Source: a virus (Duplodnaviria > Heunggongvirae > Uroviricota > Caudoviricetes). From it: a stretch of 6,751 bases of DNA. Below the pieces are notes generated by a model, which searched no databases, was not told where the DNA came from, and was given only the letters and a program-made list of their open reading frames with translations. Positions 1-6,751 of the stretch are shown here, one piece after another (within the stretch, counting starts at the first letter, position 1; each line of letters opens with the position of its first letter). The position numbers and the translations under genes are program-made. The DNA lies in the IMG/VR virus record IMGVR_UViG_2609459836_000001; one strand, 5' to 3'.

Positions 1-1
1 C

Positions 2-217
2 AACGTAGATTTTATTCAGGAACAACAGGCTGAATTACTGGAGCGCCAGATTAACGCGGCAAGGGTAAAGCATTGCGGTGTTTCTGCGCTGGTTTGCGAA
101 GAGTGTGACGCGCCAATACCTGCTGCCCGTCGTGCGGCTTATCCGTCAGCCACGCGTTGTGTTTCCTGTCAGTCAGTCTTTGAAGCAAAAAACAAACATT
201 ACCGGAGAATGGCATGA
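2..217 (+). CDS. TraR/DksA-family C4 zinc-finger protein, C-terminal fragment (5' end lies before the window); position matches P2 Orf82-like gene
   Basis: Frame 2 is open from the window edge to TGA at 215..217. Translation ...RVKHCGVSALVCEECDAPIPAARRAAYPSATRCVSCQSVFEAKNKHYRRMA has a CxxxxxxCxxC...CxxC zinc-finger arrangement. Its stop overlaps the next ATG (ATGA at 214..217). Family assignment is from motif and synteny, not a search. Confidence 0.6.
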   Translation, partial: NVDFIQEQQAELLERQINAARVKHCGVSALVCEECDAPIPAARRAAYPSATRCVSCQSVFEAKNKHYRRMA

Positions 218-489
218 GTATTCGTATCGAAATTGGCGAACGTTATGTCGTTACCAGTGACAGCTTTCAGTTTATTCTCCACGAGAAAAAGAGAGCGGAA
301 AGCGGTAAAAACGCCGGTCAGGAATGGCTGTCGGTGGTTGGTTATTACCCGAAATTAAGCCAGCTCGTTTCCGGCCTGATGCATCACGATATTCTGACCG
401 GAAGCGCAAAGTCTTTTGCTGATTTAAACGCGCAGGTTGAGCAACTCAGCAAGCGTTGTTCAGAGGCTTTTGGCTCATATGGCCGTTAA
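214..489 (+). CDS. small hypothetical protein of the P2 early replication operon (Orf83-like by position)
   Basis: 91-codon ATG-initiated ORF from the ORF track. It is coupled upstream by an ATGA overlap and overlaps the gene A start by 11 nt (A ATG at 479, this ORF's TAA at 487..489). The peptide is protein-like; function is unknown. Confidence 0.55.
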   Translation: MSIRIEIGERYVVTSDSFQFILHEKKRAESGKNAGQEWLSVVGYYPKLSQLVSGLMHHDILTGSAKSFADLNAQVEQLSKRCSEAFGSYGR

Positions 490-2764
490 AGCCTCCGGGC
501 GTTTTGTCCCTCCGTCAGCATTTGCCGCAGGCACCGGTAAGGCGTTTACCGGTGCTTATGCATGGAACGCGCCACGCGAGGCCGTCGGGCGCGAAAGACC
601 CCTTACACGTGACGAGATGCGTCAGGTGCAAGGTGTTTTATCCACGATTAACCGCCTGCCTTACTTTTTGCGCTCGCTGTTTACTTCACGCTATGACTAC
701 ATCCGGCGCAATAAAAGCCCGGTGCACGGGTTTTATTTTCTCACATCCACTTTTCAGCGTCGTTTATGGCCGCGCATTGAGCGTGTGAATCAGCGCCATG
801 AAATGAACACCGACGCGTCGTTGCTGTTTCTGGCAGAGCGTGACCATTATGCGCGTCTGCCGGGGATGAATGACAAGGAGCTGAAAAAGTTTGCCGCCCG
901 TATCTCATCGCAGCTTTTCATGATGTATGAGGAACTCTGCGATGCCTGGGTGGATGCGCATGGCGAGAAAGAATCGCTGTTTACGGATGAGGCACAGGCT
1001 CACCTGTATGGTCATGTTGCTGGCGCTGCACGAGCTTTCAATATTTCCCCTCTCTACTGGAAAAAATACCGTAAAGGGCAGATGACCACGAGGCAGGCAT
1101 ATTCTGCCATTGCCCGTCTGTTTAACGATGAGTGGTGGATTAGTCAGCTTAAAGGCCAGCGTATGCGCTGGCATGAGGCGTTACTGATTGCTGTCGGGGA
1201 GGTCAATAAAGACCGTTCTCCTTATGCCAGTAAACATGCCATTCGTGATGTGCGTGCACGCCGCCAGGCAAATCTGGAATTTCTTAAATCGTGTGATCTC
1301 GAAAACAGGGAAACCGGCGAGCGCATCGACCTTATCAGTAAGGTGATGGGCAGTATTTCTAATCCTGAAATTCGCCGGATGGAGCTGATGAACACCATTG
1401 CCGGTATTGAGCGTTACGCCGCAGCAGAGGGTGATGTGGGGATGTTTATCACGCTGACCGCGCCGTCAAAGTATCACCCGACACGTCAGGTTGGAAAAGG
1501 CGAAAGTAAAACCGTCCAGCTAAATCACGGCTGGAACGATGAGGCATTTAATCCAAAGGATGCGCAGCGTTATCTCTGCCGTATCTGGAGCCTGATGCGC
1601 ACGGCATTCAAGGATAATGATTTACAGGTCTACGGTTTGCGTGTCGTCGAGCCACACCACGACGGAACGCCGCACTGGCATATGATGCTTTTTTGTAATC
1701 CGCGCCAGCGTAACCAGATTATCGAAATCATGCGTCGCTATGCGCTCAAAGAGGATGGCGACGAAAGAGGAGCCGCGCGAAACCGTTTTCAGGCAAAACA
1801 CCTTAATCGGGGCGGTGCTGCGGGGTATATCGCGAAATACATCTCAAAAAACATCGACGGCTATGCACTGGATGGTCAGCTCGATAACGATACCGGCAGA
1901 CCTCTGAAAGATACTGCCGCGGCTGTTACTGCATGGGCGTCAACGTGGCGCATCCCGCAATTTAAAACGGTTGGTCTGCCGACAATGGGGGCTTACCGTG
2001 AACTACGCAAATTGCCTCGCGGCGTCAGCATTGCTGATGAGTTTGACGAACGCGTCGAGGCTGCACGCGCTGCCGCAGACAGTGGCGATTTTGCGTTGTA
2101 TATCAGTGCGCAGGGTGGGGCAAATGTCCCGCGCGATTGTCAGACTGTCAGGGTCGCCCGTAGTCCGTCGGATGAAGTTAACGAGTACGAGGAAGAAGTC
2201 GAGAGAGTGGTCGGCATTTACGCGCCGCATCTCGGCGCGCGTCATATTCATATCACCAGAACGACGGACTGGCGCATTGTTCCGAAAGTGCCGGTCGTTG
2301 AGCCTTTGACTTTAAAAAGCGGCATCGCCGCGCCTCGGAGTCCTGTCAATAACTGTGGAATGCTCACCGGTGGTGATACTTCGTTACCGGCTCCCACACC
2401 TTCTGAGCACGCCGCAGCAGTGCTTAATCTGGTTGATGACGGAGTTATCGAATGGAATGAGCCGGAGGTCGTGAGGGCGCTCAGGGGCGCATTAAAACAC
2501 GGCCTGAGAACACCTAATCGTCAGCAAAGAAACGGAAGCCCGTTAAAACAGCATGAAATAGCGCCATCGGCCAGACTGACCCGGTCGGAACGAATGCAAA
2601 TCACCCGTATCCGTGTTGACCTTGCTCAGAACGGTATCAGGCCGCAGCGATGGGAGCTTGAGGCGCTGGCGCGTGGCGCGACCGTAAATTATGACGGGAA
2701 AAAATTCACGTATCCGGTCGCTGATGAGTGGCCGGGATTCTCAACGGTAATGGAGTGGATATAA
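479..2764 (+). CDS. A: rolling-circle replication initiator endonuclease gpA (P2 gene A family, HUH superfamily)
   Basis: Long ORF; I place the start at the first ATG (479, MAVKASGRF...) rather than the in-frame TTG at 437 given in the ORF track. This gives 761 aa, the length I recall for P2 A. HUH motif H399-W-H401 (TPHWHMMLF) is at 1673..1681. The two-tyrosine motif GYIAKYISK puts Y450 at 1826..1828 and Y454 at 1838..1840, the residue numbers I recall for the P2 A active-site tyrosines. A possible AGAGG Shine-Dalgarno lies at 462..466. Confidence 0.9.
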   Translation: MAVKASGRFVPPSAFAAGTGKAFTGAYAWNAPREAVGRERPLTRDEMRQVQGVLSTINRLPYFLRSLFTSRYDYIRRNKSPVHGFYFLTSTFQRRLWPRIERVNQRHEMNTDASLLFLAERDHYARLPGMNDKELKKFAARISSQLFMMYEELCDAWVDAHGEKESLFTDEAQAHLYGHVAGAARAFNISPLYWKKYRKGQMTTRQAYSAIARLFNDEWWISQLKGQRMRWHEALLIAVGEVNKDRSPYASKHAIRDVRARRQANLEFLKSCDLENRETGERIDLISKVMGSISNPEIRRMELMNTIAGIERYAAAEGDVGMFITLTAPSKYHPTRQVGKGESKTVQLNHGWNDEAFNPKDAQRYLCRIWSLMRTAFKDNDLQVYGLRVVEPHHDGTPHWHMMLFCNPRQRNQIIEIMRRYALKEDGDERGAARNRFQAKHLNRGGAAGYIAKYISKNIDGYALDGQLDNDTGRPLKDTAAAVTAWASTWRIPQFKTVGLPTMGAYRELRKLPRGVSIADEFDERVEAARAAADSGDFALYISAQGGANVPRDCQTVRVARSPSDEVNEYEEEVERVVGIYAPHLGARHIHITRTTDWRIVPKVPVVEPLTLKSGIAAPRSPVNNCGMLTGGDTSLPAPTPSEHAAAVLNLVDDGVIEWNEPEVVRALRGALKHGLRTPNRQQRNGSPLKQHEIAPSARLTRSERMQITRIRVDLAQNGIRPQRWELEALARGATVNYDGKKFTYPVADEWPGFSTVMEWI
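2330..2349 (+). other. candidate rolling-circle origin (ori) nick-site region inside gene A
   Basis: In P2 the ori lies inside the A coding sequence and A acts in cis (established). The sequence GCGCCTCGGAGTCCTGTCAA contains a near-palindrome GGAGTCC and matches my unverified recollection of the P2 ori oligonucleotide. Its position about 1.85 kb into A is roughly where the P2 ori (about 89% of the genome) should fall. Low confidence. Confidence 0.3.
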
Positions 2765-2800
2765 TGGCAAAAATTCACGAGATCTTAGATAGTTTCGTAC

Positions 2801-2875
2801 TGTATATATTTAGTTGTTACTTGCAGTTTGGTATTGTTTGCCATGGTTGTTTGTTAAGTGCTTTAAAGGTGAGGA
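2801..2875 (+). promoter_or_regulatory. putative promoter and ribosome-binding region of the AT-rich cargo gene
   Basis: The 111-bp AT-rich intergenic spacer after the A stop contains TG + TATATAT (2801..2809) as a -10-like element, with TTGTTA (2814..2819) and TTGCAG (2821..2826) as candidate -35-like hexamers. AAAGGTGAGGA (2865..2875) is a Shine-Dalgarno immediately before the ATG at 2876. No convincing -35/-10 pair with 17-bp spacing was found, so the promoter is tentative. Confidence 0.25.
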
Positions 2876-4714
2876 ATGAGCGAGTTCGATGTTTTTTCTA
2901 TTTCAGTTGATGATTTTAAAAAAAGTGAGTACGCCAGTATATTGTTACCACCAAGAAGCCATTCTTATTTTGAAATGGAATCTTATTTTTTTCAGTTGTT
3001 GTTATTTTATAAGCAAAAAAAAGATGTGAGTTCTTGGAGGGTTTGCTATTTATTACGTTCGTTATTTAGTTTAAAATTTTCTAAGTCTGGTGATATTATC
3101 GACTTTGAGTCTAAAATCATTCTCTATCCTAAGCGAGGTTATAGACCTTCAGATTACAAGGATAATTATTTAACCATATTAACTTGTATTAAAGAAAATA
3201 CTGATAACCCTTATATTATATCTAGGGTGTGTGATGTTTTATGGATAAATAACCGTAAGGATATAGATTCTGCTAATAAAGCAATAGAGTCATATGCTCT
3301 AATGATTAATGATGCTTGTGATACTTTGTTAGAAAAAAAGGAATCAGGTGACATCCATGTTTTTGATGTTGTTGACTGCTTGGATAGAGGTATTACAATA
3401 TCGCGCATGCTTATTGGCAGGAAAAAACAACTGCAAGGAGGGATAGTTGACTCGACGTTAAGGCTATATCATATATTAATAGATTCTAGTATATTTATCG
3501 GTGTTTTAAGAATTTCTGAAATTCTTTATAAGAATAATTTATTGTGCCCCTTACAATTGGCTAAGAATGCAGAAAAGATAGCTGATGAGCATTGTGGAGC
3601 TTCTTATTTTGATGCTGTGAAAAAATTGTTTTATTTTGCGTCTGAATTATATGTTAAAAATGATATGGAAGAGCAAGGAAGAAGGTGCAAAATGAAAGCG
3701 ACAGAAATAACATTGGCTCAATTTGAACAGTCTTCATCTCCAACATTGAAGGCTCATTGGCTAAGAGTTGCTCTTGGGGAATTTAGAGCGATTGGTGGAA
3801 TGAGTGAAAGGATTAAAGAGATTAAAGAGGAATTAAATTCTATTCGAGATCAAATCAATGATGAAATGTATTCCTTTGCAATACCAATGGATCTTAGTGA
3901 TGTTATCGCTCAGAAAGAGCATATTTATAATCAATTAAATTTCTCAGAAATAATTAAAAAATTAATCTCTAGATTTAAGGTTGTAAGTGCCAGTGAGATT
4001 ATGGAAAGAGTTCGCTCTGATGCTAAGAGATATTTTTTTGTTAATGTGAGTGATACGGTTTTTTATGATGACAGAGGACGCGTTGTGGCAAGGCAACCAC
4101 CTTTAGATTCTGCTGGGGATATAAGTCTAGATGATGCCTGTGTAAATTATTTAAGAACTAGTAATATTGAGCATCAGTTTTATGTTTATGGTGAGTTTGA
4201 AGTTGTTAGGCAAAGAGTGTTGTCTAGGTATTCATTAAATGAGAATACATTTGACCCAATCTCACAACAAAGTCTATTTGTTCCTCCTGGGTATGCGGAA
4301 ATATTTTCTTTAGGATTTCTTAAGCTTTGGCAGGGGGATTATGTGTCTGCCTGTTATTTGTTGTTGCCGCAGTTGGAGAATTCAATTAGATGGATTTTAG
4401 AATTAAGAAGAAAAGAAACAACGAAAATAGATGTGTCACTTTTTGAGGAGGCTACTAGTCTATCTCAAATGCTTGCAAATTATAAGAGTGAAATGGAAGG
4501 TATTTTTGGGAGTGATCATGTATTGACTATGGATTTATTGTTCAATATGAAAGGTGGTGCTGCAATTAGACACACGATGGCTCATGGCAGGTATACTGTA
4601 AATCATTGTTATCAACCAACTTCAGTTTTTGCCTGTGTCTTTATCTTTTATTTAACTTGTTTGCCTTTATTTAGTGTATGGGAAGATAAAGTTGAACCTT
4701 ATCTGACTGATTAA
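2876..4714 (+). CDS. hypothetical 612-aa protein: horizontally acquired cargo in the A-to-cos variable locus; candidate anti-phage defence protein with possible C-terminal HEPN-like motif
   Basis: Uninterrupted 612-codon ORF with a strong Shine-Dalgarno. Base composition is visibly AT-rich (roughly one third GC by eye; not computed) against clearly more GC-rich flanks. No Walker A/P-loop is visible. An Rx4H motif (AIRHTMAHG, R565..H570) lies at 4568..4585 and a hydrophobic C-terminal segment SVFACVFIFYLTCLPLFSVW follows. I do not recognise the protein as tin, old or any named system. Confidence 0.8.
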   Translation: MSEFDVFSISVDDFKKSEYASILLPPRSHSYFEMESYFFQLLLFYKQKKDVSSWRVCYLLRSLFSLKFSKSGDIIDFESKIILYPKRGYRPSDYKDNYLTILTCIKENTDNPYIISRVCDVLWINNRKDIDSANKAIESYALMINDACDTLLEKKESGDIHVFDVVDCLDRGITISRMLIGRKKQLQGGIVDSTLRLYHILIDSSIFIGVLRISEILYKNNLLCPLQLAKNAEKIADEHCGASYFDAVKKLFYFASELYVKNDMEEQGRRCKMKATEITLAQFEQSSSPTLKAHWLRVALGEFRAIGGMSERIKEIKEELNSIRDQINDEMYSFAIPMDLSDVIAQKEHIYNQLNFSEIIKKLISRFKVVSASEIMERVRSDAKRYFFVNVSDTVFYDDRGRVVARQPPLDSAGDISLDDACVNYLRTSNIEHQFYVYGEFEVVRQRVLSRYSLNENTFDPISQQSLFVPPGYAEIFSLGFLKLWQGDYVSACYLLLPQLENSIRWILELRRKETTKIDVSLFEEATSLSQMLANYKSEMEGIFGSDHVLTMDLLFNMKGGAAIRHTMAHGRYTVNHCYQPTSVFACVFIFYLTCLPLFSVWEDKVEPYLTD

Positions 4715-4875
4715 TGGAAGTTGATTTAGGTATTTTGGCATTTATCTTTCTGCGTGCAATATGTGCATGGTTTTGCATGTGCCGGAGTTGCATGTTCCGG
4801 CCGTGCGTCCGCCAGAACGGGCGTGGCTCAAAAGCGGTATTGCACCTGCATTAAAAACACCCCATGAAGCGGGCG

Positions 4876-4894
4876 GGCGAGGCGGGGAAAGCAC
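4876..4894. other. cos site: 19-nt P2-type cohesive-end sequence GGCGAGGCGGGGAAAGCAC
   Basis: Exact match to the 19-nt cohesive-end sequence I recall for P2. It sits about 190 bp from the Q stop, in the same orientation and relative position as in P2, where Q is the first gene next to the left cos end. Confidence 0.7.
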
Positions 4895-5036
4895 TGCGCG
4901 CTGGCGGTGGTGCTGATTTTATTTTTTCAGCGTCTGAGCGCGTCGTGATGGCGTTTAGATTGTTAGCCGGGGCGTTGGTGTGTCTGCGGGCTGTTTTGTG
5001 CGGTGGTGAGCGTGTGAGGGCGTGATGGCGGGTTGT

Positions 5037-5058
5037 AAAAAAGCCGCCCGCAGGCGGC
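5037..5058 (-). terminator. Rho-independent terminator downstream of Q (end of the P-Q operon)
   Basis: On the minus strand, a GCCGCC / GGCGGC stem (5043..5048 and 5053..5058, 4-nt loop) is followed immediately by a run of six T (complement of A 5037..5042). It begins 5 nt after the Q stop codon at 5064..5066. Confidence 0.55.
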
Positions 5059-5063
5059 GATGT

Positions 5064-6098
5064 TCAGCCGTTGTCAGTGTCCAGTGAGTAGTTTTTAAAG
5101 CGGATGACCTCCTGACCGAGCCAGCCGTTTATCTCGCGGATCCTGTCCTGTAACGGGATAAGCTCATTGCGGACAAAGACCTTTGCCACTTTCTCAATAT
5201 CACCCAGCGACCCGACGTTCTCCGGCTTGCCCCCCATCAACTGAAAGGGGATGCGGTGCGCGTCCAGCAGGTCAGCGGCGCTGGCTTTTTTGATATTAAA
5301 AAAATCGTCCTTCGTTGCCACTTCACTGAGCGGGATAATTTTAATGCCGTCGGCTTTCCCCTGTGGGGCATAGAGAAACAGATTTTTAAAGTTATTGCGG
5401 CCTTTCGACTTAACCATGTTTTCGCGAAGCATTTCGATATCGTTGCGATCCTGCACGGCATCAGTGACGTACATGATGTATCCGGCATGTGCGCCGTTTT
5501 CGTAATACTTGCGGCGGAACAGCGTGGCCGACTCATTCAGCCAGGCAGAGTTAAGGGCGCTGAGATATTCCGGCAGGCCGTACAGCTCCTGATTAATATC
5601 CGGCTCCAGCAGGTGAAACACGGAGCCGGGCGTGAAAGGTGTCGGCTCGTTGAAGGACGGCACCCACCAGTAAACATCCTCCTCCACCCCACGGCGGGTA
5701 TATTTTGCCGGTGAGGTTTCCAGTCTGATGACCTTACCGGTAGTGCTGTAACGCTTTTCCAGAAACGCATTACCGAACACCAGAAAATCCAGCACAAAGC
5801 GGCTGAAATCCTGCTGAGAAAGCCACGGATGCGGGATAAATGTCGAGGCCAGAATATTGCGTTTGACGTAAATTGGTGAGCTGTGATGCACGGCAGCACG
5901 CAGGCTTTTTGCCAGACCAGTAAAGCTGACCGGTGGCTCATACCATCTGCCGTTACTGATGCACTCGACGTAATCCAGAATGTCACGGCGGTCGAGTACC
6001 GGCACCGGCTCACCAAAGGTGAATGCTTCCATTTTCGGGGCGCTGGCGGTCATTTTTTTTGCCGCAGGTTGCGGTGTTTTCCCTTTTTTCTTGCTCAT
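5064..6098 (-). CDS. Q: capsid portal protein gpQ (P2 gene Q family)
   Basis: 344-codon ORF, the same length as P2 Q by my recollection. It lies next to cos on the complement strand as in P2. Its start overlaps the stop of the upstream minus-strand ORF by 1 nt, the arrangement I recall for P2 P/Q. The translation reads as a globular phage structural protein. Confidence 0.8.
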   Translation of the reverse strand: MSKKKGKTPQPAAKKMTASAPKMEAFTFGEPVPVLDRRDILDYVECISNGRWYEPPVSFTGLAKSLRAAVHHSSPIYVKRNILASTFIPHPWLSQQDFSRFVLDFLVFGNAFLEKRYSTTGKVIRLETSPAKYTRRGVEEDVYWWVPSFNEPTPFTPGSVFHLLEPDINQELYGLPEYLSALNSAWLNESATLFRRKYYENGAHAGYIMYVTDAVQDRNDIEMLRENMVKSKGRNNFKNLFLYAPQGKADGIKIIPLSEVATKDDFFNIKKASAADLLDAHRIPFQLMGGKPENVGSLGDIEKVAKVFVRNELIPLQDRIREINGWLGQEVIRFKNYSLDTDNG

Positions 6099-6436
6099 CA
6101 GTAAAACTCCAGAATGGTGGATGTCAGCGGGGTGCTGATACCGGCGGTGAGTGGCTCATTTAACAGGGCGTGCATGGTCGCCCAGGCGAGGTCGGCGTGG
6201 CTGGCTTCCTCGCTGCGGCTGGCCTCATAGGTGGCACTGCGTCCGCTGCTGGTCATGGTCTTGCGGATAGCCATAAACGAGCTGGTGATGTCGGTGGCGC
6301 TGACGTCATATTCCAGACAGCCACGGCGGATAACGTCTTTGGCCTTGAGCACCATTGCGGTTTTCATTTCCGGCGTGTAACGGGAGTATTGCCTCCACAC
6401 TGGCGACGTCGCTGTCATTTGAAAAGCGTTACACGC
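6098..6436 (-). pseudogene. P: 3' fragment of terminase large (ATPase) subunit gene P; 5' portion missing
   Basis: A minus-strand frame ending in TGA coupled to the Q start is where the C-terminus of P should be. The frame is open only back to a stop at 6437..6439 (ORF track 6098..6418, 106 aa), whereas P2 P is about 590 aa. Sequence beyond about 6420 instead encodes a + strand ORF. Identity as P rests on synteny only. Confidence 0.45.
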
Positions 6437-6751
6437 TCAATGTCATTGTGACCGACTTTACCGGTGATTTTGACCTGCTCATCGTGCCGGTGCTGGCGTG
6501 GCTGCGGGAAAATCAGCCCGACATCATGACCACTGACGAAGGCCAGAAAAAGGGCTTCACGTTTTATGCAGACATCAACAATGACAGCAGCTTTGATATC
6601 AGCATCAGCCTGATGCTGACCGAGCGCACGCTGGTCAGTGAGGTGGACGGCGCGCTGCATGTGAAGAATATCCCGGAACCCACGCCGCCGGAGCCGGTCA
6701 CCCGCCCGATGGAGCTTTATATCAATGGCGAACTGGTGAGCAAGTGGGATG
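6349..6751 (+). CDS. partial + strand ORF running off the window; possibly a P2 late-operon tail protein (tentatively tail-completion gpR-like), true start undetermined
   Basis: The frame is open from just after TGA 6346..6348 to the window end. Translation ...NGSIASTLATSLSFEKRYTLNVIVTDFTGDFDLLIVPVLAWLRENQPDIMTTDEGQKKGFTFYADINNDSSFDISISLMLTERTLVSEVDGALHVKNIPEPTPPEPVTRPMELYINGELVSKWD is strongly protein-like. Orientation matches the P2 late operon O..S, but it is not scaffold gene O, which is what should follow P. The gpR assignment is an unverified recollection. Candidate starts are TTG 6355, GTG 6448 and ATG 6521. Confidence 0.35.

What the first reader, a model, noticed from the sequence alone, without database searches (positions are those of the whole stretch)
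6098..6751. Terminase gene P is truncated to its last ~110 codons and abutted by a + strand ORF: probable internal deletion and defective prophage
Q is intact and its start is coupled to the stop of an upstream minus-strand frame as expected for P. That frame is closed by a stop at 6437..6439, so most of the roughly 590-aa terminase is missing. From about 6349 onward the + strand carries an open, protein-like frame that is not scaffold gene O. If that ORF is a tail gene from deeper in the late operon (tentatively gpR-like), a deletion has fused the 3' end of P to the interior of the tail cluster. This would remove terminase ATPase, scaffold, major capsid, small terminase, head completion and lysis functions. 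The element would then be a cryptic prophage retaining replication genes, the cargo hotspot, cos and portal, a state in which cargo is typically kept by selection on the host.
Basis: partly seen in the sequence, partly recalled or inferred. Interest (0 to 1): 0.55.

Follow-up and report, generated by a model that had tools for sequence, protein, structure and literature searches.

The report
Head-and-lysis deletion in P2-like prophage
A P2-type prophage of E. coli has lost about 7 kb (most of the terminase gene, both late promoters, and all head and lysis genes), an ordinary kind of prophage decay, but the left breakpoint is a spot in the terminase gene where many unrelated P2-like prophages have broken.

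Summary
Window 6098-6379 (minus) holds the last 93 codons of the 590-codon large terminase gene P. From 6380 the plus strand is tail-completion gene R, codons 31-154. The join is clean: GTGTA|ACGGGAG, with 2 nt of certain overlap (6 nt if the parent P allele read TAACGG), no filler and no IS. Against an intact relative that is 99.9% identical on the left side (E. coli E308), 7,037 bp are missing: the P N-terminus, promoters pP/pO, O, N, M, L, X, Y, K, lysA/B/C and the R 5' end. gpA, the defence cargo (PDC-S39/DUF7380), cos and portal Q remain. The window is a whole 6,751-bp contig, so the rest of the prophage is unseen.

The unexpected part is that the identical junction occurs in three other assemblies with different cargo genes and different flanking haplotypes, yet in none of 5,426 complete E. 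coli genomes. The same P breakpoint is also joined to at least seven other partner sites (P-internal twice, M, FI twice, U). Control positions showed none. Several partner sites are reused too, and TA-containing overlaps are about 14-fold enriched. The cause of this site preference is unknown: Int att core, gpA nick site, hairpin and REP likeness were tested and not supported.

The parts
437..2764 (+). gpA replication endonuclease (context; retained). The P2 ori nick-site sequence is conserved near 2337.
   Evidence: Pfam Phage_GPA E = 8.9e-124 [8]. The P2 ori region matches at 97.7%, and its 20-mer is found at window 2323 [54, 55].
2876..4714 (+). Cargo gene in the gpA-gpQ hotspot: 612-aa DUF7380 protein, PADLOC candidate defence system PDC-S39, G+C 29-38%.
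   Evidence: Pfam DUF7380 8.7e-26 and phrog_5183 over the full length [8, 9]. PADLOC PDC-S39 1.9e-73 [27]. Composition [3]. The exact protein is WP_032250846/KDX61797 [31].
4876..4894 (+). cos: the 19-nt cohesive-end sequence, identical to that of P2.
   Evidence: Exact match to GGCGAGGCGGGGAAAGCAC [91].
5043..5058 (-). Terminator after Q (tQ equivalent).
   Evidence: G+C-rich hairpin followed by a T run [90]. P2 annotates tQ at the same relative place [13].
5064..6098 (-). Portal gene Q, intact. Its late promoter pP has been deleted.
   Evidence: ORF of 344 aa [1]. phrog_68 3e-176 over 1-343 of 344 [9]. 0 differences from intact E308 [80].
6098..6379 (-). Remnant of large terminase gene P: the last 93 codons plus the stop, out of 590.
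   Evidence: Collinear with P2 1221-1502/1506 and E308 [16, 17, 24, 25]. Terminase_6C profile positions 85-154 of 155 [8].
6378..6383 (.). Deletion junction. TA (6378-6379) is shared by both parents. TAACGG is shared if the parental P allele had A at 6380; such alleles exist.
   Evidence: Three-way alignments with P2, E308 and VE-V10-F [17, 25]. P alleles reading GTGTAACGGAT occur in IMG/VR [40].
6380..6751 (+). Remnant of tail-completion gene R: codons 31-154 of 155, cut by the contig end. It lacks its start codon and promoter pO.
   Evidence: Pfam P2_Phage_GpR profile positions 46-133 of 133 [8]. Alignment to P2 gpR [91]. 98.4-99.2% identity to R in phages [11].
6098..6418 (-). Chimeric 106-aa ORF: 13 codons of antisense R followed by 93 codons of P. 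No Shine-Dalgarno-like sequence and no promoter were found, so it is probably not expressed.
   Evidence: [1, 7, 90, 91]. The exact protein is on 4 contigs elsewhere [26, 31].
6437..6439 (-). TGA that closes the P reading frame upstream. It lies in antisense R sequence.
   Evidence: [7, 17]

Best explanation
The window is the replication, cargo, cos and portal end of a P2-like (Peduovirus-type) prophage of E. coli. This prophage has suffered one clean deletion of about 7.04 kb. The deletion joins codon 497/498 of terminase gene P to codon 30/31 of tail-completion gene R.

The deletion removed:
- the ATPase and most of the nuclease domain of P;
- the divergent Ogr-dependent promoters pP and pO;
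- O, N, M, L, X, Y, K, lysA, lysB and lysC;
- the start of R.

Consequences (inferred from P2 genetics): the element cannot make heads, package DNA, lyse the cell or complete tails. Q, R' and S are left without their late promoters. The element keeps gpA with ori, cos and the defence-type cargo gene, so it is a 'grounded' prophage that still carries its cargo.

How the join formed (inferred): illegitimate, short-overlap joining of two directly oriented sites, with 2-6 nt of overlap, no filler and no IS.

The join is not at a random place (shown). The P-side breakpoint, ...TTTCCGGCGTGTA|, lies 282 nt from the P stop. It is a recurrent and apparently one-sided deletion endpoint in P2-like prophages. 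The very same P-to-R junction has most likely arisen more than once.

The agent that makes this site and its partners preferred is not identified.
For: Deletion:
- Window 1-6383 is 99.9% identical to E308, whose prophage is annotated as complete from P to R. Window 6380-6751 is E308's R gene, 7,037 bp downstream [23, 24, 25]. The same geometry holds against P2 [13, 16, 17].
- Domain hits cover only the C-terminal parts of P and R [8, 9, 91].
- cos, the terminator and Q are intact [9, 90, 91].

The junction is real and not an assembly error:
- The identical junction is in three other assemblies (ENA 73.5-kb contig L008, Logan L009, metagenome scaffold L010) [26, 28, 29].

Recurrence of the P breakpoint:
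- Partners are P-internal 26992 in ETEC4069 [84, 86] and P-internal about 27413 in L035 [43, 44].
- M start in protein P0014 [32, 36, 37], at protein level only.
- R [25, 29].
- FI 40914 in L021 and FI 41195 in L076 [44, 47, 48].
- U 44743 in L030 and in O157:H16 98-3133 [44, 65, 69-71].

Sampling and controls:
- In an unselected sample of 120 IMG/VR loci, 4 had a deletion with its left end in P. One of the 4 was at this site [45-48].
- The same pattern search at three better-conserved control positions in P found 0, 0 and 0 [59-61]. At the hot site it found 3 junctions [38, 40].
- The mirror search, with the right side kept, found 0 [62].

Independent origin of the P-to-R junction:
- The window's Q plus P remnant is identical to intact E308 (0 differences in 1,316 nt). 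It differs from the other carriers at sites as close as 38 nt to the junction.
- The carriers are no closer to each other than to random P2-like phages.
- The carriers have three different cargo genes [26, 29, 80].
Against: - The window is a whole contig [31]. Integration, the state of the remaining late genes, and the presence of a second intact P2-like prophage in the same genome are all unknown.
- The junction was found in 0 of 5,426 complete E. coli genomes, 0 GTDB representative genomes and 0 IMG/VR contigs [12, 18-20], so it is rare.
- Most hot-site junctions were found by searches aimed at that site, which inflates their share. In the unselected samples other P breakpoints also occur: 178, 486, 632, 897 and 1285 nt [15, 46-48, 85].
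- Independent origin rests on flanking SNPs. Recombination very close to the junction cannot be excluded.
- No mechanism for the site preference passed a test [42, 55, 56, 76, 97].
Confidence: 0.85

Rival explanations
1. The junction is an assembly chimera. Two P2-like prophages in one draft genome were wrongly joined by the assembler, and P is actually intact.
For: The window is a complete short contig whose two ends both lie in P2-like sequence [31]. That is typical of a genome with more than one P2-like element. No complete E. coli genome has the junction [12].
Against: The two parents share only 2-6 nt at the join [25], far below any assembler overlap. The identical junction is present in three independent assemblies from other samples and pipelines [26, 28, 29].
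Confidence: 0.02
2. There was one ancient deletion. All carriers of the P-to-R junction descend from it, and the different cargo genes and flanking haplotypes came later, by homologous recombination with incoming P2-like phages. On this view the other junctions at the same P site are unrelated coincidences.
For: - Cargo in the gpA-gpQ hotspot is known to be swapped rapidly between P2-like elements (PMC9122126, PMC13586616).
- L008 sits at the cpxP-fieF att site used by E308 and VE-V10-F [15, 23, 26, 42], and L009 carries a P2-type integrase at its contig end [26].
- In the R arm the window is as close to carrier L009 as to anything else (4 differences) [80].
Against: - The window's left flank is identical to an intact prophage right up to the junction. 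It differs from the other carriers 38 and 47 nt from it [25, 29, 80].
- L008 and L009 differ 41 nt to the right of the junction [29].
- An old vertically inherited remnant should be present in some of the 5,426 complete genomes, yet none has it [12].
- At least seven other partners at the same nucleotide cannot be coincidence (0/0/0 at control positions) [38, 40, 59-61].
Confidence: 0.15
3. The deletions are made by a sequence-directed enzyme acting on a degenerate site (about G-G-N-T-A| on the plus strand, often RTAAC). Candidates are a type II topoisomerase, whose cuts carry a 4-nt stagger, or an unidentified recombinase. On this view the head-lysis block is removed by quasi-site-specific events rather than by random slippage.
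For: - Endpoints are reused in different pairings at the same nucleotide [44, 48, 71, 79, 86, 98]. P1 has at least 7 partners and P2s (26334) has 3.
- FI-a was used with both P1 and P2s. FI-b was used by L076 and by VE-V10-F. T-a was used by L107 and L008. P@897 was used by L107 and ETEC4069.
- About 12 of 25 distinct junctions have TA in the overlap, against 3.5% for random pairs [79, 98].
- Several overlaps are exactly 4 nt: TAAC, TAAC, GTAG, GGTG [79, 86].
- Gyrase is known to cleave preferred sites, including REPs (PMC6379681).
Against: - The enzyme could not be named.
- The cpxP-type att core [42], the P2 attP core (P1 is not among the best core-like sites) [73, 76] and the gpA nick sequence [55] gave no match to the sites.
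- No unusual hairpin was found [56]. REP-likeness does not single out the junction sites [97].
- The gyrase position matrix was not available [88, 89].
- A prediction test for the second site, P2s, found no junction in IMG/VR [99, 100].
- The junction set is small and partly collected by targeted search.
Confidence: 0.35
4. The truncated element is a functional derivative rather than debris. It could be a cos-bearing element that a co-resident P2-like helper packages in trans. Alternatively, the 106-aa terminase tail could act as a decoy against incoming P2-like phages.
For: cos is exact, and gpA with the ori nick sequence is intact [55, 91]. The exact chimeric ORF recurs on four contigs [26]. 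Short terminase C-terminal ORFs are common: the cluster has 182 members, and one 89-aa form is on 490 contigs [31, 32].
Against: - No promoter-like site and no ribosome-binding sequence was found for the ORF [90, 91], and pP is deleted [13].
- Recurrence of the ORF follows from recurrence of the junction.
- Carrier L008 is further degraded, with deletions in J, the I-H-G region, FI, T, U and D [26, 98], as expected of decay.
- Nothing here tests packaging.
Confidence: 0.05

Closest known systems
Bacteriophage P2 (Peduovirus P2, NC_001895) and P2-like prophages of E. coli, e.g. the prophage at cpxP-fieF in strain E308 (NZ_CP030281)
   Same: - Gene order gpA, variable hotspot, cos, Q, P.
- The 19-nt cos is identical.
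- The overlap of the Q start with the P stop is the same.
- Identity is 97-99.9% across Q, the P 3' end and R [10, 11, 13, 24, 91].
   Different: P2 coordinates 1507-8549 are absent. The cargo is a DUF7380/PDC-S39 gene instead of old and tin [13, 27].
Defective ('grounded', cryptic) prophages that keep defence cargo, as surveyed for P2-like elements in PMC13586616 and reviewed in PMC6379469
   Same: Loss of morphogenesis and lysis functions through deletion, while the hotspot defence gene stays identical to that of intact relatives. The cargo protein is exact in other E. coli isolates [31].
   Different: [quoted passage not shown] Here one nucleotide position in P is a repeated deletion endpoint.
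Other decayed P2-like prophages found here: VE-V10-F (P 486 nt joined to M), W13-16 (P 178 nt joined to ogrK), O157:H16 98-3133 (P 282 nt joined to U), EH01-18-02 (P 237 nt joined to FI)
   Same: Each retains Q plus a short 3' piece of P, and each has deleted rightwards into the late genes with a few nt of overlap [15, 67-71, 85].
   Different: The right-hand endpoints differ, and in some the left-hand endpoints too. None has the P-to-R junction.
One-ended deletion hot spots at enzyme cleavage sites (rolling-circle Rep nick sites, IS-adjacent deletions, P2 Int-dependent eduction). These comparisons are from my own knowledge.
   Same: One fixed endpoint, many distal partners, and very short overlaps.
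   Different: No IS is present at the junction. There is no similarity to the P2 gpA nick site or to the att cores [42, 55, 73, 76]. The fixed point lies inside a coding region with no known site.

Membership tests
P2-like (Peduoviridae) temperate phage/prophage | gpA rolling-circle initiator with its ori inside the gene | tested here: met
   Phage_GPA E = 8.9e-124 [8]. The P2 ori nick sequence is conserved in the window [54, 55].
P2-like (Peduoviridae) temperate phage/prophage | P2-type cos between the variable region and Q | tested here: met
   Exact 19-nt cos at 4876-4894 [91].
P2-like (Peduoviridae) temperate phage/prophage | Q and P transcribed leftwards and overlapping by one base, with O to S transcribed rightwards | tested here: met
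   Q and the P remnant share base 6098. R is on the plus strand [1, 2, 13].
Defective (cryptic) prophage | Loss or disruption of genes essential for particle production | tested here: met
   P is truncated to 93 of 590 codons. O, N, M, L, X, Y and K are absent and R lacks 30 codons, by alignment to P2 and E308 [13, 17, 23-25].
Defective (cryptic) prophage | Integrated in a chromosome | not testable with these tools
   The contig holds no att site or host gene [1, 31]. The carrier of the same junction, L008, lies between cpxP and fieF [26, 42].
Defective (cryptic) prophage | No infectious particles on derepression | not testable with these tools
   This needs an experiment. A second, intact P2-like prophage in the same genome cannot be excluded.
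Short-overlap illegitimate deletion | Both flanks collinear with an intact relative, a few shared nt at the join, no filler and no mobile element | tested here: met
   Three-way alignments show TA shared for certain, and TAACGG shared 5 of 6 or 6 of 6 [17, 25, 40].
Int-mediated secondary-site recombination (as in P2 eduction) | Breakpoints resemble the att core of the resident integrase | tested here: not met
   The cpxP-type core GACACCATCCCTGTCTTCCCCCACATGATGTGGGGGTTTTTTT shows no resemblance [42]. With the P2 core, P1 shares only CGTGTA (CGTGTAA in A-allele copies) and is not among the best core-like sites in E308; better matches are not junctions [73, 76].
Rep (gpA) nick-site recombination | The fixed endpoint resembles the ori nick sequence GCGCCTC|GGAGTCC | tested here: not met
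   No similarity on either strand [54, 55].
Palindrome- or REP-associated (gyrase) breakage | An unusually stable hairpin or a REP-like sequence at the endpoints | tested here: inconclusive
   Folding z-scores are -0.2 to -1.6 [56]. REP-likeness does not enrich for junction sites [97]. The gyrase motif matrix was not obtainable [88, 89].
PDC-S39 candidate defence system (cargo gene) | Full-length match to the PADLOC PDC-S39 model, at a known defence hotspot | tested here: met
   E = 1.9e-73 over residues 8-599 [27]. The gpA-gpQ hotspot location is described in PMC9122126. Anti-phage activity was not tested.

The most novel reading that the evidence does not exclude
P2-like prophages are inactivated again and again by deletions that start at one nucleotide position in the terminase gene (and at a few other reused sites sharing G-G-N-T-A|). 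This would imply a sequence-directed breakage or joining activity. That activity repeatedly cuts out the head, packaging and lysis block while leaving cos and the adjacent defence hotspot in the chromosome. The identical P-to-R junction would then be a recurrent product, not a single inherited accident.
Probability: 0.35. Interest if true: 0.65.

Novelty: new member of a known kind. Interest (0 to 1): 0.42.

Why it matters
As a single locus this is routine. It is a defective P2-like prophage that can no longer kill or leave its host but still carries a candidate anti-phage gene.

It matters more if the recurrence holds up. A preferred breakpoint would mean that the conversion of P2-like phages into fixed, defence-carrying chromosomal islands is partly channelled by sequence, not only by random decay plus selection. 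It would also give a simple PCR-testable junction (primers near window 6250 and 6500) for measuring prophage grounding rates and finding the responsible pathway.

It also warns annotators that the many short 'terminase' ORFs of 84-106 aa in Enterobacterales are deletion scars.

Tried and rejected
1. Searches for the junction elsewhere:
- The 32-mer and 22-mer junction patterns found nothing in GTDB representative genomes or IMG/VR [18-20].
- Four JGI metagenome hits to the 22-mer are unrelated soil sequences with no other similarity to the window [21, 22].
- A megablast of 6250-6550 against 5,426 complete E. coli genomes gave no spanning match [12].

2. Integrase hypothesis:
- I derived the att core of the cpxP-fieF prophage group from attL and attR. 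It shows no resemblance to the breakpoints [42].
- I read the P2 attP core from NC_001895. It shares CGTGTAA with the breakpoint (A-allele copies only; E308 reads CGTGTAG), but the breakpoint does not rank among the best core-like sites of the prophage [72, 73, 75, 76].

3. gpA pseudo-ori: the nick sequence is unrelated [54, 55].

4. Hairpin or cruciform: folding energies are not unusual [56].

5. REP or BIME likeness: a scan with REP consensus pieces does not enrich for junction sites [97].

6. Gyrase motif: the position matrix (table DS10 of PMC6379681) is not in the held supplement, so this was not tested [88, 89].

7. XerC arm, DnaA box, Ter, invertase and IS200/IS605 target resemblances were considered by eye only. 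None fits all sites, and they are not counted as evidence.

8. Second hot site P2s (26334): the prediction test in IMG/VR found one polymorphic allele and no junction [99, 100].

9. The predicted P-to-M junction and the L035-type P-internal junction were found in 0 complete E. coli genomes [81, 82].

11. Liu & Haggard-Ljungquist 1994 is not held in the library [52].
Full report
Numbers in brackets are tool call numbers.

**What is in the window**

The 6,751-bp window carries the following features.
- gpA (437-2764, plus): Pfam Phage_GPA E = 8.9e-124.
- A low-G+C cargo gene (2876-4714, plus): DUF7380, and PADLOC candidate system PDC-S39 at E = 1.9e-73.
- An exact P2 cos 19-mer (4876-4894).
- A terminator (5043-5058, minus).
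- Portal gene Q (5064-6098, minus), which is full length against phrog_68.
- A 106-aa minus-strand ORF (6098-6418).
- A plus-strand frame open from 6349 to the end of the window [1, 3, 6, 8, 9, 27, 90, 91].

This is the gpA, hotspot, cos, Q, P arrangement of P2 [13] and of the P2-like defence hotspot described in PMC9122126.

The exact cargo protein (WP_032250846; KDX61797, KDX69444, KDX74176) was seen on contigs whose longest is 6,751 bp. The window is therefore an entire contig of an E. coli draft genome [31].

**Checking the observation**

- The Q start and the stop of the upstream minus frame share base 6098, exactly as Q and P do in P2 [2, 13].
- The minus frame is closed by TGA at 6437-6439 [7, 17].
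- The 106-aa ORF matches only the C-terminal end of large terminases (Terminase_6C profile positions 85-154 of 155) [8, 9].
- The plus-strand frame is gpR: Pfam P2_Phage_GpR positions 46-133 of 133, PHROG tail terminator. It equals P2 gpR residues 31-154 [8, 9, 91].

**The breakpoint**

- Megablast against phages aligns window 5000-6383 with Q and P, and window 6378-6751 with R and S, in the same records [10, 11].
- Against P2 the two diagonals are offset so that P2 1507-8549 is missing [16, 17].
- The closest relative of the left 6,383 bases is the prophage at cpxP-fieF in E. coli E308, with 6 mismatches. Its genes from P to R are all annotated as complete. In E308 coordinates 7,037 bp are missing [14, 23-25].
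- The parents read GTGTA|GCGGAT (P side) and GGATA|ACGGGAG (R side). The window reads GTGTAACGGGAG.
- TA is therefore shared for certain. TAACGG is shared if the parental P allele had A at 6380, and such alleles exist [25, 40].
- There is no filler and no IS.

The deletion removes the first 497 codons of P, the pP and pO start sites with the shared activator site, and O, N, M, L, X, Y, K, lysA, lysB, lysC and codons 1-30 of R [13].

No sigma-70-like promoter is found in 4700-6751, and the chimeric ORF has no Shine-Dalgarno-like sequence [90, 91]. From P2 genetics (established knowledge), the element cannot form heads, package, lyse or finish tails.

**Is the junction real?**

The junction is absent from 5,426 complete E. 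coli genomes, from GTDB representative genomes, from IMG/VR and, apart from chance hits, from JGI metagenomes [12, 18-22].

The exact 106-aa chimeric protein, however, is encoded on four other contigs, three of which were shown. DNA alignment shows the same junction in L008 (ENA, 73.5 kb), L009 (Logan) and L010 (a metagenome scaffold) [26, 28, 29]. An assembler artefact is excluded.

L008 shows what may lie beyond such a junction: S, orf30, V and W, then further deletions affecting J, the I-H-G region, FI, T, U and D, then ogr and fieF-pfkA [26, 98].

**The unexpected part: recurrence**

The three other carriers have different cargo genes, an AAA_13 protein in L008 and a Fic protein in L009 [26].

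They also have different flanking haplotypes.
- The window's Q plus P remnant has 0 differences from intact E308 over 1,316 nt.
- It has 32-33 differences in Q and 4-5 in the P remnant from the other carriers. The nearest differences are 38 and 47 nt from the junction.
- L008 and L009 differ 41 nt to its right.
- Each carrier has closer relatives among intact phages than among the other carriers [29, 80].

Short terminase ORFs in the same 90% cluster show several different N-terminal extensions fused at the same residue: ...R|YTPEMK [31, 32]. Their extensions are antisense translations of other late genes, namely M, U and T [36, 37].

A pattern search for the 21 bases left of the breakpoint followed by a non-native base found 27 IMG/VR contigs. 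Of these, 24 are allelic variants and 3 are junctions: to FI (L021), to U (L030) and to P-internal (L035) [38, 40, 43, 44].

Further cases came from other searches.
- L076: P to FI at a second FI site.
- O157:H16 98-3133: P to U.
- ETEC4069: an in-frame 615-bp deletion inside P starting at the same site [47, 48, 65, 69-71, 84, 86].

With R and the protein-level M case, that makes at least eight partners for one left endpoint.

Controls:
- Three better-conserved positions in P gave 0, 0 and 0 hits of any kind [58-61].
- The mirror search, with the right side kept, gave 0 [62].
- In an unselected sample of 120 IMG/VR loci holding the Q/P boundary, 93 had full P and 23 were cut by the locus end.
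- The other 4 had deletions with left ends at 281, 632, 897 and 1285 nt, so one of the four is at the hot site [45-48].

**Other reused sites**

- A second P site 45 nt away (26334 in E308 coordinates, GGCGGATA|AC) is joined to two FI sites in complete genomes. It is also joined to T in a Salmonella protein [66-68, 70, 71, 32, 37].
- FI 40912-40915 serves both P sites.
- FI 41195 is a right end in L076 and a left end in VE-V10-F.
- T 43973/4 is a right end in L107 and a left end in L008.
- P at 897 nt is a left end in L107 and a right end in ETEC4069 [79, 86, 98].

About 12 of 25 distinct junctions have TA inside the overlap, typically in G-G-N-T-A| context and often RTAAC. Random site pairs with at least 2 nt of overlap contain TA in 3.5% of cases [79, 98].

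A prediction test for the second P site in IMG/VR found no junction [99, 100]. Its hot-site status is therefore weaker.

**What might cause the preference**

Tested and not supported:
- the att core of the resident integrase type [42];
- the P2 attP core [72, 73, 76];
- the gpA nick sequence [54, 55];
- unusual DNA hairpins [56];
- REP-likeness [97].

A type II topoisomerase origin is attractive because several overlaps are exactly 4 nt and gyrase has preferred sites (PMC6379681). It could not be tested because the motif matrix is not held [88, 89]. The cause is left as unexplained.

**Comparison with what is known**

Defective P2-like elements with conserved defence genes are documented. PMC13586616 notes no obvious pattern in which core genes are inactivated. 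General reviews of grounded prophages exist (PMC6379469).

The locus is thus a new member of a known kind. The reuse of one nucleotide position in P, and the probable repeated origin of an identical 7-kb deletion, are not described in the papers I could read. This rests on a small and partly targeted sample.

**Verdict**

- Interest is low for the deletion itself. It becomes moderate because of the recurrent breakpoint.

Noticed in passing
window 1-6751: The window appears to be a complete contig. The exact cargo protein is recorded on contigs whose longest is 6,751 bp, from E. coli drafts (KDX61797, KDX69444, KDX74176). Both contig ends lie in conserved P2-like genes, which suggests a second P2-like element in the same genome.
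   Followed up: partly
window 2876-4714: The cargo gene has 29-38% G+C and a strong positive GC skew. It is a DUF7380 protein matching PADLOC candidate PDC-S39, in the gpA-gpQ defence hotspot. Its function is untested.
   Followed up: partly
L008 11786-13993; L009 2364-3404: The same P-to-R junction sits next to different cargo genes in other assemblies: a 735-aa AAA_13 protein and a 346-aa Fic protein.
   Followed up: partly
L007 (E308) 26334, 26379, 26990, 40913, 41195, 43973: A small set of positions is reused as deletion endpoints in different pairings, in unrelated P2-like prophages, to the same nucleotide or within 1-4 nt. Some are reused as a left end in one genome and a right end in another.
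   Followed up: partly
junction set from L002, L008, L021, L030, L035, L076, L107, L109, L159-L161, L164: About half of the distinct deletion junctions have TA inside the short overlap (context G-G-N-T-A|, often RTAAC). Random pairs do so in 3.5% of cases. Several overlaps are exactly 4 nt.
   Followed up: partly
L002 (VE-V10-F) 18098-19119, 22134-25172, 32651-33942: A prophage with the same cargo gene has an independent deletion joining P (486 nt left) to M. It also has an IS21-family insertion in S and a sheath-to-D deletion.
   Followed up: partly
L165 (W13-16) 2501-2879: Here a P remnant of only 178 nt abuts ogrK next to fieF, so essentially the whole late region from P to D is gone.
   Followed up: no
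L164 (ETEC4069) 2369-3526: An in-frame 615-bp deletion inside P, from the hot site to the 897-nt site with overlap GTAG, leaves a 385-aa ORF. It is annotated as a terminase-domain protein in an otherwise intact-looking head region.
   Followed up: partly
protein cluster of P0001: The 90% cluster of short terminase C-terminal ORFs has 182 members. One 89-aa form was seen on 490 contigs across Enterobacterales, and an 84-aa form on 168 Salmonella contigs. Such scars are common and are usually annotated simply as 'terminase'.
   Followed up: partly
L007 44745-44772; L095: The best match to the P2 attP core in the E308 prophage (19 of 28) lies at the start of gene U. One junction (L095, O to U) crosses at its centre, and the P-to-U junction lies at its left edge. 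This may be coincidence.
   Followed up: no
L003-L006: Four soil metagenome contigs share the 22-mer TCCGGCGTGTAACGGGAGTATT within a conserved stretch of their own and have no other similarity to the window. These are chance hits.
   Followed up: yes
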